Origin: Escherichia coli | GTDB lineage: Bacteria; Pseudomonadota; Gammaproteobacteria; Enterobacterales; Enterobacteriaceae | Length of the DNA: 64,000 nt | NCBI RefSeq assembly: GCF_050920415.1 | Contig: NZ_CP169309.1 | Direction: 5' to 3' (one strand) | Shown: piece after piece, positions 7,184 through 9,773 of the stretch | Layout of the letters: the number at the start of each line of letters is the position of its first letter | How positions within the stretch are numbered: position 1 is the first letter of the stretch | Notes under the pieces: model-generated | Databases searched by the model: none | What the model was told of the DNA's origin: nothing | The model's input: only the letters and a program-made list of their open reading frames with translations | Made by a program: the position numbers and the translations under genes

Positions 7184-7368
7184 AGCGATCTCAATGTTAC
7201 CGTGTAACTCTTTACAGAATATCAGCTTTTTAGGCCAGTGAAGAAAAGAATCTCCATCCTGTGAGCTTTAACGCCCATGCCAGGAGTATTGTCGGTGCTT
7301 TCTACGTGTGCTGCAGTGCCGGTTACGGTATAATCGCGGCTTTGACAACAGACTAAAAAACATCAACT

Positions 7369-9129
7369 TTGACCATTACGAAACTTGCATGGCGTGACCT
7401 GGTTCCTGATACCGATAGCTATCAGGAAATATATGCTCAGCCACATTTGATTGACGAAAACGATCCTATATTCAGTGATACTCAACCGCGACTGCAATTT
7501 GCGCTGGAGCAGTTGCTGCATACGCGAGCATCCTCCTCTTTTATGCTGGCGAAGGCCCCGGAAGAGTCTGAGTATCTGAATCTTATTGCCGATGCCGCGC
7601 GTGCGCTACAAAGCGATGCAGGCCAACTGGTGGGCGGTCACTATGAGGTTTCCGGCCACACCATCCGCTTACGTAACGCAGTGAGTGCAGATGATAATTT
7701 TGCGACTTTAACGCAAGTTGTCACTGCCGACTGGGTAGAAGCGGAACAACTCTTTGGCTGCCTGCGCCAGTTTAATGGTGACATTACCCTGCAGCCAGGT
7801 CTGGTGCATCAGGCAAATGGCGGTATTCTCATCATCTCTTTGCGTACACTGCTGGCGCAACCTCTGCTGTGGATGCGGCTGAAAAATATCGTTAACCGCG
7901 AGCGTTTTGACTGGGTTGCGTTTGACGAGTCGCGCCCTCTCCCCGTCTCTGTGCCTTCGATGCCATTGAAGCTGAAAGTCATTCTGGTAGGCGAACGCGA
8001 ATCATTAGCTGATTTCCAGGAGATGGAGCCAGAGCTTGCTGAGCAGGCTATTTATAGCGAATTTGAAGATACTCTGCAGATTGTCGATGCGGAGTCAGTA
8101 AACCAGTGGTGTCGTTGGGTGACATTTACCGCCAGACATAACCACTTACCTGCACCGGGAGCGGATGCCTGGCCGGTACTTATTCGCGAAGCCGCACGCT
8201 ACACCGGTGAACAAGAAACACTGCCGCTTAGCCCGCAGTGGATCCTCCGCCAGTGTAAAGAGGTCGCCTCACTGTGTGATGGCGACACCTTCTCCGGCGA
8301 GCAGCTAAACTTAATGTTACAGCAGCGTGAATGGCGCGAAGGTTTCCTCGCTGAACGCATGCAGGATGAGATCCTTCAGGAGCAAATCCTGATTGAAACC
8401 GAAGGCGAACGCATCGGGCAAATTAACGCCCTTTCGGTCATTGAATTTCCGGGTCATCCGCGCGCTTTTGGCGAACCTTCTCGCATTAGCTGCGTTGTAC
8501 ATATTGGCGATGGTGAATTCACTGACATCGAACGCAAAGCGGAGCTTGGCGGCAATATCCATGCGAAAGGGATGATGATCATGCAGGCGTTCCTGATGTC
8601 GGAACTTCAGCTTGAGCAACAGATCCCCTTCTCAGCATCGCTGACATTTGAGCAGTCATATAGCGAAGTGGATGGCGATAGTGCCTCAATGGCTGAACTC
8701 TGCGCCCTGATAAGCGCCCTCGCCGATGTGCCGGTGAATCAGAGTATTGCTATCACAGGTTCAGTCGATCAATTCGGTCGCGCCCAGCCAGTCGGTGGTT
8801 TAAATGAGAAAATCGAAGGCTTCTTTGCTATTTGCCAGCAACGTGAGTTAACGGGGAAACAAGGTGTCATTATCCCCACTGCTAACGTTCGCCATTTAAG
8901 TCTTCACAGTGAACTGGTGAAAGCAGTAGAGGAAGGCAAATTCACCATCTGGGCAGTAGACGATGTGACTGAAGCACTGCCGTTATTATTAAATCTGGTG
9001 TGGGATGGCGAAGGCCAAACGACGCTGATGCAAACCATCCAGGAACGTATCGCGCAAGCATCGCAACAGGAAGGACGTCACCGTTTTCCATGGCCATTAC
9101 GTTGGCTGAACTGGTTTATTCCGAACTGA
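7369..9129 (+). CDS. ycbZ: Lon-like protease homolog YcbZ
   Basis: 586-aa ORF with TTG start; C-terminal DGDSAS (Ser codon 8680-8682) resembles the Lon catalytic-Ser motif; no GxxxxGK[ST] P-loop seen by eye. Confidence 0.8.
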
Positions 9130-9140
9130 TCGGACTTGTT
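9124..9140 (+). promoter_or_regulatory. FadR operator of the fabA promoter
   Basis: aactgatcggacttgtt fits the FadR consensus ANCTGGTCNGACNTGTT; overlaps the ycbZ stop codon. Confidence 0.7.
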
Positions 9141-9141
9141 C

Positions 9142-9159
9142 AGCGTACACGTGTTAGCT
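9142..9159 (+). promoter_or_regulatory. probable FabR operator of fabA
   Basis: agcgtacacgtgttagct, palindromic around cacgtg, immediately after the FadR site as I recall for fabA. Confidence 0.5.
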
Positions 9160-9197: not shown

Positions 9198-9716
9198 ATG
9201 GTAGATAAACGCGAATCCTATACAAAAGAAGACCTTCTTGCCTCTGGTCGCGGTGAACTGTTTGGCGCTAAAGGCCCGCAATTGCCAGCACCGAACATGC
9301 TGATGATGGACCGTGTCGTCAAAATGACCGAAACGGGGGGGAACTTCGACAAAGGGTATGTTGAAGCAGAACTGGATATCAATCCGGATCTGTGGTTCTT
9401 CGGATGCCACTTCATTGGCGATCCGGTTATGCCGGGATGCCTGGGTCTGGACGCAATGTGGCAGCTGGTAGGGTTCTACCTCGGCTGGCTGGGCGGCGAA
9501 GGTAAAGGCCGCGCACTGGGTGTTGGCGAAGTGAAATTCACTGGTCAGGTTCTGCCGACAGCAAAAAAAGTGACCTACCGTATTCACTTTAAACGCATTG
9601 TTAATCGTCGTCTGATTATGGGTCTGGCAGATGGCGAAGTGCTGGTTGATGGTCGTCTGATTTACACCGCCAGCGACCTGAAAGTCGGTCTGTTCCAGGA
9701 TACGTCTGCCTTCTGA
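9198..9716 (+). CDS. fabA: 3-hydroxydecanoyl-ACP dehydratase/isomerase
   Basis: 172-aa [40 protein letters not shown]...; ORF-track 9000 start is an upstream extension. Confidence 0.95.
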
Positions 9717-9743: not shown

Positions 9744-9773
9744 GAAACCTCCGCATTGCGGAGGTTTCTTTTT
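9744..9773. terminator. rho-independent terminator between convergent fabA and rmf
   Basis: stem gaaacctccgcattgcggaggtttc followed by a T-run. Confidence 0.75.

What the first reader, a model, noticed from the sequence alone, without database searches (positions are those of the whole stretch)
7369..9129. ycbZ: Lon-type protease domain without a recognisable P-loop
The C-terminal part of this 586-aa protein carries DGDSAS, resembling the Lon catalytic-serine motif, but I could not find a GxxxxGK[ST] Walker A motif anywhere in the protein. That suggests an ATPase-independent Lon-like peptidase whose substrates are unknown. The gene sits between matP (chromosome organisation) and fabA (lipid synthesis).
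Basis: partly seen in the sequence, partly recalled or inferred. Interest (0 to 1): 0.45.

Follow-up and report, generated by a model that had tools for sequence, protein, structure and literature searches.

The report
YcbZ: ATPase-dead LonC-type protease
This is the known but uncharacterised E. coli gene ycbZ, a Lon-family serine protease whose motor domain keeps its fold but has lost every ATP-binding residue; Lon-like proteases of this kind were described years ago, so the finding is correct but ordinary.

Summary
Window 7369-9129 (+) is E. coli ycbZ: 586 aa, TTG start, present in 5425 of 5426 complete genomes. DGDSAS is at aa 435-440, and no Walker A or Walker B motif occurs anywhere in the protein.

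Ser438 and Lys481 align with the catalytic Ser582 and Lys625 of Meiothermus LonC, the ATP-independent Lon-like protease (E 6e-57). Both residues are invariant in 143 relatives. An AlphaFold model (pLDDT 95) superposes over its whole chain on LonC (TM 0.84).

The AAA-like fold is therefore retained, but it is degenerate:
- The P-loop (GxxGxGK in long LonC relatives) is replaced by KAPEESEY.
- The Walker-B Asp is replaced by Ser.
- LonC's ~200-aa helical hairpin is deleted.

Lon-like proteases without AAA+ motifs were described before the LonC subfamily was named in 2012. Substrates are still unknown. Published genetics link YcbZ to translation fidelity and to macrolide resistance.

In many genera the ycbZ stop codon lies inside the fabA FadR-type operator. 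No long LonC locus is linked to fabA (0 of 41).

The parts
7369..9129 (+). ycbZ coding sequence (586 aa, TTG start, TGA stop)
   Evidence: RefSeq annotates the CDS identically (WP_000156536.1). It is present in 5425 of 5426 complete E. coli genomes.
7369..7785 (+). N-terminal part of the degenerate AAA-like alpha/beta subdomain (aa 1-139). It corresponds to the LonC N-terminus with the helical-hairpin extension deleted.
   Evidence: Alignment with long relatives. No Pfam hit when searched alone. Weak profile-profile match in the same register (E 0.02). Whole-chain TM 0.84 to MtaLonC requires part of this region to superpose. pLDDT is 89-98.
7552..7575 (+). Former P-loop position (aa 62-69, KAPEESEY), between strand 58-62 and helix 67-80
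   Evidence: It aligns to GxxGxG[KR] of long LonC relatives.
7786..8043 (+). Pfam AAA_32 (LonB-like AAA) partial match, aa 140-225. It contains the Walker-B-like GGILIISL (aa 151-158, nt 7819-7842), with Ser157 in place of Asp.
8044..8388 (+). Helical (lid-like) subdomain, aa 226-340. It is not detectable by the LonB_AAA-LID profile.
   Evidence: Helices in the AF2 model. Aligned to MtaLonC 380-487. The LID profile matches only long and intermediate relatives.
8389..9003 (+). Lon S16 protease domain, aa 341-545
   Evidence: Pfam Lon_C. PDB alignment. 53-73% identity to relatives, the most conserved part of the protein.
8671..8688 (+). DGDSAS. The catalytic Ser438 codon is AGT at 8680-8682.
   Evidence: G436, D437 and S438 are invariant.
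8809..8811 (+). Catalytic Lys481 codon (AAA)
   Evidence: It aligns to MtaLonC Lys625 (PMC3391209). Invariant.
9061..9126 (+). C-terminal aromatic/basic tail, aa 565-586 (..[15 protein letters not shown]). It contains the published ribosome-stall site Pro585/Asn586 (9121-9126).
   Evidence: PMC8848927. An RNase E two-hybrid fragment covers aa 565-586 (PMC13232886). The tail is conserved only in the fabA-linked clade.
9124..9159 (.). fabA regulatory boxes abutting ycbZ. A FadR-type operator (AACTGATCGGACTTGTT, 9124-9140) overlaps the Asn586 codon and the stop codon. A FabR-type palindrome (AGCGTACACGTGTTAGCT) lies at 9142-9159.
   Evidence: Sequence. Conservation across lineages. The identification of these boxes as FadR and FabR sites rests on my own knowledge of the fabA promoter literature and was not tested here.
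9198..9716 (+). fabA, co-oriented, 68 nt downstream. Reported as co-transcribed in a ycbZ-fabA operon.
   Evidence: PMC4161252. No terminator-like site lies between the two genes.

Best explanation
ycbZ encodes a soluble Lon-family (MEROPS S16) serine protease derived from the LonC lineage. Shown: it has a complete LonB/LonC-type protease domain with an invariant Ser438-Lys481 dyad. This domain is fused to an AAA-like alpha/beta plus helical module that keeps the fold but has lost the P-loop (KAPEESEY in place of GxxGxGK), the Walker-B acidic residue (Ser157) and the LonC helical-hairpin insertion. Inferred: the protein therefore cannot bind or hydrolyse ATP. By analogy with MtaLonC and TTC1975 it assembles into a ring-shaped chambered protease, in which the dead AAA-like ring acts as a passive gate and scaffold. 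It would then cleave only polypeptides that are already unfolded or unstructured, without energy-dependent unfolding. Published genetics suggest that its physiological clients are linked to translation. Loss of ycbZ raises stop-codon read-through. Loss of ycbZ is also repeatedly selected under erythromycin and gives cross-resistance to other ribosome-targeting drugs. The substrates themselves remain unidentified.
For: Sequence and family:
- Pfam finds AAA_32 plus Lon_C.
- The best solved relative is MtaLonC/TTC1975, E 6e-57 over aa 140-547, with Ser438 aligned to Ser582 and Lys481 to Lys625.
- The LonC-type CX3GLXG insertion is aligned without a gap (CQQRELTG against CKALGLSG, PMC3391209).
- S438 and K481 are invariant in 143 sequences and in both clades.

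Structure:
- The AF2 model has pLDDT 95.3 and pTM 0.91.
- Foldseek TM is 0.84/0.84 to MtaLonC, 0.71 to LonB and 0.3-0.4 to LonA.

Loss of ATPase residues:
- No Walker A or Walker B motif is present.
- Clade-wide replacement: the P-loop K/R column is Tyr in 32 of 38, and the Walker-B Asp column is Ser or Pro in 30 of 38.
- The hairpin is deleted.
- No transmembrane-grade hydrophobic window exists.

Biochemistry of the homologues: MtaLonC and TTC1975 lack ATPase activity and degrade unfolded substrates without ATP (PMC3391209).

Selection on the gene: it is core to E. coli and kept in 0.6-1.15 Mb insect endosymbionts.

Published phenotypes.
Against: - No biochemical data exist for YcbZ itself. 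Oligomeric state, proteolytic activity and nucleotide independence are all inferred.
- YcbZ lacks the hairpin that MtaLonC uses for substrate recognition and chaperone activity (PMC13069640), so substrate selection must work differently.
- MtaLonC still binds ATPgammaS, so some nucleotide role exists in the wider family.
- The N-terminal 85 residues are only marginally similar in sequence to long LonC proteins (hhalign E 0.02).
- Databases still call the protein 'AAA family ATPase' or 'putative ATP-dependent protease'.
Confidence: 0.8

Rival explanations
1. YcbZ is a dedicated regulatory protease of the translation apparatus rather than a general scavenger of unfolded protein. It would recognise one or a few ribosome-associated or RNA-degradosome-associated clients, possibly through its conserved C-terminal aromatic tail or through a partner adaptor or unfoldase supplied in trans. 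This refines the best explanation rather than contradicting it.
For: - Delta-ycbZ increases stop-codon read-through, and a plasmid rescues it (reported in PMC9508795 citing Gagarinova 2016).
- Loss-of-function mutations are repeatedly selected under erythromycin. They give cross-resistance to chloramphenicol, tetracycline, puromycin and blasticidin S.
- YcbZ and its fragment aa 565-586 score positive with RNase E in two-hybrid assays.
- The tail is conserved at the protein level only in this clade.
- The hairpin used by LonC for generic substrate capture is absent.
Against: - No substrate has been identified.
- The drug phenotypes are pleiotropic (EDTA, 5-FOA, norvaline) and could be indirect, for example through efflux regulation as suggested in PMC4079197.
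- The two-hybrid signal was not validated by pull-down.
Confidence: 0.35
2. YcbZ is a genuine ATP-dependent AAA+ protease, as its database names say, using a non-canonical nucleotide-binding site.
For: - RefSeq calls it 'AAA family ATPase' and the literature calls it 'putative ATP-dependent protease'.
- The AAA-like fold is retained.
- There is a Pfam AAA_32 match.
Against: - No Walker A or Walker B motif is present.
- P-loop glycines and lysine are replaced by acidic or aromatic residues across the whole clade, and the Walker-B Asp is replaced by Ser or Pro.
- NCBIfam scores are far below every Lon equivalog cut-off (87 against 517 bits for LonB).
- Even the closest characterised homologues, which still have a P-loop-like motif, have no ATPase activity.
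Confidence: 0.03
3. YcbZ is no longer a protease. It would be a chaperone or scaffold (pseudo-enzyme), or a gene maintained mainly because its 3' end and transcripts carry fabA regulatory signals.
For: - MtaLonC has a chaperone mode.
- The ycbZ-fabA adjacency is strictly conserved, and fabA operator boxes overlap the ycbZ stop codon.
- ycbZ and fabA are co-transcribed.
Against: - The catalytic Ser, the catalytic Lys and the surrounding EQxY..GDSA and NEKIEG motifs are invariant.
- The protease domain is the most conserved part, at 53-73% identity.
- LonC chaperone activity maps to the hairpin, which YcbZ lacks.
- Knock-outs have trans phenotypes that a plasmid rescues.
Confidence: 0.06

Closest known systems
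LonC subfamily: Meiothermus taiwanensis MtaLonC and Thermus thermophilus TTC1975 (PDB 4fwd, 4fw9, 8k8v; MEROPS S16.007)
   Same: - It is the best sequence match (E 6e-57) and the best fold match (TM 0.84).
- It has the LonB/C-type D-G-D-S-A active site with a Ser-Lys dyad.
- It has the LonC-type CX3GLXG insertion after the catalytic-Lys helix.
- It is soluble.
- Its AAA-like module lacks functional Walker motifs.
   Different: - YcbZ lacks the ~200-aa helical-hairpin extension that typifies LonC and mediates substrate capture and chaperoning.
- It lacks even the vestigial P-loop (GPPSLGKHE) and the Walker-B-like Asp.
- It carries a clade-specific aromatic C-terminal tail.
- It is genomically locked to fabA.
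Archaeal LonB (Thermococcus onnurineus, PDB 3k1j)
   Same: It has the same AAA-protease architecture without a LonA N-domain and the same active-site consensus. TM is 0.71, phmmer E is 4.5e-16, and the best NCBIfam hit is the LonB model.
   Different: LonB has intact Walker A and B motifs and a membrane anchor inserted in the AAA domain. YcbZ has neither, and its score is far below the LonB equivalog cut-off (87 against 517 bits).
LonA (E. coli Lon / endopeptidase La)
   Same: It shares the S16 protease domain with a Ser-Lys dyad (E about 1e-4).
   Different: LonA has a large N-domain, a functional AAA+ motor and a Pro-Ser active-site motif. Whole-chain TM is only 0.3-0.4.
Long LonC-type paralogues of Proteobacteria (790-930 aa; for example the second copy in Vibrio spp.). 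Pseudomonas AsrA/PA0779 may belong here, but that is recalled from memory and was not tested.
   Same: These share the same protease domain (about 53% identity) and the AAA_32 core.
   Different: They retain LonC_helical, the LID profile and a GxxGxG[KR][HT] motif. They are never next to fabA (0 of 41 loci).

Membership tests
Lon family (MEROPS S16) | Lon_C protease domain with a catalytic Ser-Lys dyad | tested here: met
   Pfam Lon_C E 1.8e-10. Ser438 and Lys481 align to MtaLonC Ser582 and Lys625. Both are invariant in 143 sequences.
LonC subfamily | LonB/C-type active-site consensus (Asp, not Pro, before the catalytic Ser) | tested here: met
   D-G-D-S438-A. The criterion comes from PMC9569914.
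LonC subfamily | LonC-specific insertions in the protease domain (CX3GLX(G/E) after the Lys helix, and an insertion in helix alpha5) | tested here: met
   CQQRELTG aligns without a gap to CKALGLSG, and SELVKAV aligns to AEVLEAV. C489 is at least 90% conserved. The criterion comes from PMC3391209. Gly is replaced by Glu at one consensus position.
LonC subfamily | AAA-like module present but without canonical Walker A/B, sensor or Arg-finger residues | tested here: met
   The fold is retained (TM 0.84). No Walker motifs are present. Sensor and Arg-finger positions were not examined individually.
LonC subfamily | Type-specific helical-hairpin extension (HHE; Pfam LonC_helical) inserted in the alpha/beta subdomain | tested here: not met
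   YcbZ has no LonC_helical match, while long relatives score 52-63 bits. The alignment shows a ~200-residue deletion. YcbZ is therefore a LonC-derived variant, not a canonical LonC.
LonC subfamily | Vestigial Walker-A-like motif (GPPSLGKHE type) | tested here: not met
   YcbZ has KAPEESEY at that position. The K/R column is Tyr in 32 of 38 YcbZ-type proteins, against K/R in 36 of 39 long forms.
LonC subfamily | No ATPase activity, ATP-independent degradation of unfolded substrates, and ring oligomers | not testable with these tools
   This needs purified protein. It has been shown only for MtaLonC and TTC1975.
LonB subfamily | Intact Walker A/B motifs and a transmembrane anchor inserted in the AAA domain | tested here: not met
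   No motifs are present. The maximum 19-residue Kyte-Doolittle mean is 1.54, and that window lies in the protease core. TIGR00764 scores 87 bits against a cut-off of 517.
LonA subfamily | LonA N-terminal domain, functional AAA+ module and a Pro-Ser active site | tested here: not met
   TIGR00763 scores 31 bits against a cut-off of 608. TM is 0.3-0.4. Asp precedes the catalytic Ser.
AAA+ ATPases (the RefSeq product name) | Walker A GxxxxGK[ST] and Walker B hhhhDE | tested here: not met
   Regex searches find none. The replacement is clade-wide.
BrxL / defence-associated Lon-like proteins | A match to the BrxL model or to PADLOC defence models | tested here: not met
   TIGR02653 scores 9.8 bits against a cut-off of 628. 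The only PADLOC hit is a weak CARF_LON match, E 0.0036, over the protease motif.

The most novel reading that the evidence does not exclude
The YcbZ clade may be more than a decayed LonC. It is a vertically inherited 'mini-LonC' that has stayed immediately upstream of fabA since before the Enterobacterales, Vibrionales, Pasteurellales, Aeromonadales and Idiomarinaceae diverged. Its stop codon sits in or next to the fabA FadR/FabR operator region. Its last codons encode a clade-specific aromatic tail that stalls ribosomes (shown in E. coli). The most novel reading not excluded is that this arrangement is functional. Ribosome pausing at the end of ycbZ on the ycbZ-fabA transcript, or the YcbZ tail itself, would couple translation status to unsaturated-fatty-acid synthesis or to mRNA decay through RNase E. 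YcbZ would then be a translation-linked regulatory protease.
Probability: 0.08. Interest if true: 0.6.

Novelty: already known. Interest (0 to 1): 0.22.

Why it matters
YcbZ is one of the few E. coli proteases that has never been characterised biochemically. Losing it repeatedly yields macrolide and multidrug resistance in evolution experiments, and it affects stop-codon read-through. The work here has three practical consequences:
- Knowing that the protein is a LonC-type chamber with a completely erased nucleotide site tells experimenters not to look for ATP dependence, and corrects the misleading database name 'AAA family ATPase'.
- It points to S438A and K481A substrate traps as the way to find clients.
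- The strict linkage to fabA and the coexistence of short and long paralogues in Vibrio offer a clean comparative system.

None of this changes the picture of Lon-family biology. The class has been known since 2004-2012.

Tried and rejected
- Sequence-only detection of the N-terminus failed. Pfam on aa 1-140 and aa 225-344 alone gave nothing. Profile-profile comparison of the N-terminal 85 residues with long LonC N-termini gave only E 0.02, although in the same register as the MAFFT alignment. Homology of that part therefore rests mainly on the whole-chain fold match.
- A defence-system role (BrxL-like or CARF-Lon) is rejected.
- An RNA element or attenuator at the ycbZ-fabA junction is rejected. 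There is no Rfam hit, folding is no better than shuffles (z -0.34), and there is no terminator between the genes.
- The promoter consensus scan found nothing convincing upstream of ycbZ on the + strand.
- I could not obtain Gagarinova et al. 2016 or Table S1 of Liao et al. 2012. The read-through phenotype is therefore cited second-hand. [quoted passage not shown]
- Two Haemophilus loci seemed to lack GDSA. They carry GDSS with the serine intact, so there is no pseudo-protease lineage.
- A link to Pseudomonas AsrA/PA0779 is recalled from memory and was not tested.

Full report
**1. The observation**

Window 7369-9129 (+) holds a 586-aa ORF that starts with TTG, with an in-frame stop 15 nt upstream. 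The DNA is 100% identical to E. coli strain MFDS1022581. There RefSeq annotates exactly this CDS as ycbZ, 'AAA family ATPase', flanked by matP (divergent) and by fabA 68 nt downstream. The segment is found in 5425 of 5426 complete E. coli genomes.

DGDSAS is at aa 435-440. Regular-expression searches find no strict Walker A, no relaxed Walker A, no GK[ST] and no hhhhD[DE].

**2. What the protein is**

Sequence searches:
- Pfam detects a partial AAA_32 'LonB-like AAA' match (aa 140-225, profile positions 35-124 of 133, E 6e-14) and Lon_C (aa 435-540, E 1.8e-10).
- NCBIfam scores fall far below every Lon equivalog cut-off: LonB 87 against 517 bits, LonA 31 against 608, BrxL 10 against 628.
- Against solved structures, the best match by a wide margin is the Meiothermus taiwanensis / Thermus TTC1975 Lon-like protease LonC (E 6e-57, aa 140-547 aligned to 296-691). 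Next come archaeal LonB (4.5e-16) and then LonA proteins (about 1e-4).

In the LonC alignment, Ser438 pairs with Ser582 and Lys481 pairs with Lys625, the catalytic dyad of MtaLonC (PMC3391209). The LonC-specific CX3GLXG insertion is present without a gap (CQQRELTG).

In an alignment of 143 relatives drawn from a search that scored all 1.84 billion cluster representatives (3115 hits at E<=1e-3), G436, D437, S438 and K481 are invariant.

**3. The AAA-like module: fold kept, chemistry erased**

An AlphaFold2 model built on that alignment is very confident (mean pLDDT 95.3, pTM 0.91). Foldseek superposes the whole chain on the MtaLonC crystal structures with TM 0.84/0.84. LonB gives 0.71 and LonA 0.3-0.4. 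The first 139 residues make up 24% of the chain, so a TM of 0.84 requires part of them to superpose as well.

Alignment with long relatives (790-930 aa) shows three differences:
- The strand-loop-helix that carries GxxGxG[KR][HT] in long forms reads [12 protein letters not shown] in YcbZ. In long forms G is present in 38/39, 38/39 and 35/39 at the three glycine columns, and K/R in 36/39. At the Lys column, 32 of 38 YcbZ-type proteins have Tyr.
- The Walker-B-like Asp (D/E in 39 of 39 long forms) is Ser or Pro in 30 of 38 (GGILIISL in E. coli).
- The ~200-residue helical-hairpin extension that typifies LonC is deleted. Pfam LonC_helical and LonB_AAA-LID match long forms strongly, Aeromonas and Idiomarina forms weakly, and YcbZ not at all.

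No window reaches transmembrane-grade hydrophobicity. The protease domain is the best conserved part (53-73% identity to relatives), while the N-terminal 139 residues show 12-36%. At the sequence level the N-terminus is only marginally related to long LonC proteins (hhalign E 0.02), and Pfam sees nothing there.

**4. How it most likely works**

*Shown:* an intact LonB/C-type Ser-Lys protease domain fused to a degenerate AAA-like scaffold with no nucleotide-binding residues.

*Inferred from MtaLonC and TTC1975:* these proteins have no ATPase activity, form rings, and degrade only unfolded substrates without ATP (PMC3391209; PMC13069640). By analogy, YcbZ forms a chambered ring and cleaves unstructured polypeptides without energy input. 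The acidic former P-loop (E65, E66, E68) argues against even the residual nucleotide or phosphate binding that MtaLonC shows.

YcbZ lacks the hairpin that MtaLonC uses for substrate capture and chaperoning, so it must select substrates differently.

Published genetics point to translation:
- Delta-ycbZ raises stop-codon read-through, and a plasmid rescues it (as cited in PMC9508795 and PMC8848927).
- Loss-of-function alleles arise repeatedly under erythromycin. They give cross-resistance to chloramphenicol, tetracycline, puromycin, blasticidin S and some unrelated compounds.
- YcbZ and its last 22 residues score positive with RNase E in two-hybrid assays.

No substrate is known.

**5. Context and distribution**

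A scan of one genome per species, plus three metagenomic contigs, gave 83 loci. I called the ORFs and searched for fabA, matP and rmf.

- *Short and intermediate P-loop-less forms (545-676 aa):* 41 of 42 loci have fabA 65-211 nt downstream on the same strand. These loci come from Enterobacterales, Vibrionaceae, Pasteurellaceae, Orbaceae, Aeromonas, Oceanisphaera and Pseudidiomarina. The single exception is Aliidiomarina.
- *Long LonC-type loci:* 0 of 41 have fabA within the ~4 kb of downstream sequence held for each locus.
- Six Vibrio species carry both a short fabA-linked copy and a long copy. The two are therefore paralogues with separate roles.
- matP is divergent upstream in Enterobacterales, Vibrionaceae and Pasteurellaceae, and rmf is often convergent downstream.
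- ycbZ is retained in insect endosymbionts with genomes of 0.59-1.15 Mb.

In E. coli the two genes are reported as a ycbZ-fabA operon with additional internal and fabA-proximal promoters (PMC4161252). No terminator-like site separates them.

**6. The junction with fabA**

The sequence AACTGATCGGACTTGTT (9124-9140) overlaps the Asn586 codon and the TGA stop. The palindrome AGCGTACACGTGTTAGCT lies at 9142-9159. I recognise these as the FadR and FabR boxes of the fabA promoter from my own knowledge; this was not tested here.

Both boxes are conserved next to, or overlapping, the ycbZ stop codon in six Enterobacteriaceae genera, Yersinia, Rahnella, Budvicia, Salinivibrio, Aliivibrio, Vibrio, Aeromonas, Pseudidiomarina and Pasteurellaceae.

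Ribosomes stall strongly at Pro585/Asn586 of ycbZ, and this depends on P585, N586 and on W579/L580 mutated together (PMC8848927). These codons occupy the same DNA as the activator site.

An aromatic/basic C-terminal tail is conserved at the protein level throughout the fabA-linked clade and is absent from long forms. I found no RNA family and no unusual RNA structure at the junction. Whether this overlap has any functional meaning is unknown.

**7. Comparison with what is known, and novelty**

Liao et al. [quoted passage not shown] They name the group LonC and note that E. coli has more than one Lon subfamily. MEROPS lists LonC as S16.007. The finding is therefore correct but already known.

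In the strict sense YcbZ fails two LonC criteria, the hairpin and the vestigial P-loop. It is best described as a LonC-derived, further-reduced variant rather than a canonical LonC.

- the complete, clade-wide erasure of nucleotide-binding residues;
- the apparent stepwise series from long forms, through Aeromonas/Idiomarina intermediates, to short forms;
- the strict fabA linkage, with the stop codon inside the operator region.

**8. Verdict**

Novelty is 'already known'. Interest is low to moderate (0.22). It rests mainly on YcbZ still having no known substrate, and on the unexplained, deeply conserved coupling to fabA.

Noticed in passing
window 9121-9159: The published ribosome-stall codons of ycbZ (Pro585/Asn586, 9121-9126) and its stop codon overlap a FadR-type operator (AACTGATCGGACTTGTT, 9124-9140). 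A FabR-type palindrome follows at 9142-9159. Both boxes are conserved at or over the ycbZ stop in Enterobacterales, Vibrionaceae, Pasteurellaceae, Aeromonas and Pseudidiomarina. The identity of the boxes is from memory. No paper I read connects the stall site with the operator.
   Followed up: partly
loci L002-L041 and L052 versus L042-L084: fabA lies 65-211 nt downstream of 41 of 42 short P-loop-less ycbZ-type genes and of 0 of 41 long LonC-type genes. The upstream neighbours vary (matP, sulfatase, folB, tauE), so the conserved unit is ycbZ-fabA, often with rmf convergent downstream.
   Followed up: yes
L027/L043, L024/L048, L028/L058, L023/L053, L040/L057, L032/L062: Six Vibrio species carry both a short fabA-linked YcbZ (545-556 aa) and a long LonC-type paralogue (786-805 aa) with LonC_helical and LID domains.
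   Followed up: partly
L035 (Aeromonas caviae), L039 (Pseudidiomarina marina), L004: These fabA-linked forms of 650-676 aa have no P-loop but keep weak LonC_helical and LID matches. They look like evolutionary intermediates between long LonC and YcbZ.
   Followed up: partly
window 9061-9126 (aa 565-586): The C-terminal tail [15 protein letters not shown] is aromatic and basic. It is conserved at the protein level, with synonymous DNA changes, across the fabA-linked clade (variants ..RIKNWF..FWDFF..WWRRWFN) and is absent from long forms. The AF2 model gives it low confidence (pLDDT 62-67). The same 22 residues were the RNase E two-hybrid prey.
   Followed up: partly
P0123, P0124: YcbZ orthologues are retained in reduced insect-symbiont genomes (Candidatus Dasytiphilus stammeri, ~0.59 Mb; Candidatus Pantoea carbekii, ~1.15 Mb). 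This suggests a housekeeping role.
   Followed up: no
window 7369 and upstream 7340-7368: ycbZ starts with TTG and has no obvious Shine-Dalgarno sequence (..AAAAAACATCAACT TTG). The N-terminal residues are conserved in distant homologues, which supports this start.
   Followed up: partly
window 9744-9768: A perfect 11-bp-stem hairpin with T-runs on both strands lies between the convergent genes fabA and rmf. It is a likely bidirectional terminator.
   Followed up: no
window 7369-9129 annotation: The RefSeq product name 'AAA family ATPase' and the literature label 'putative ATP-dependent protease' are functionally misleading, because every ATP-binding motif is absent.
   Followed up: yes
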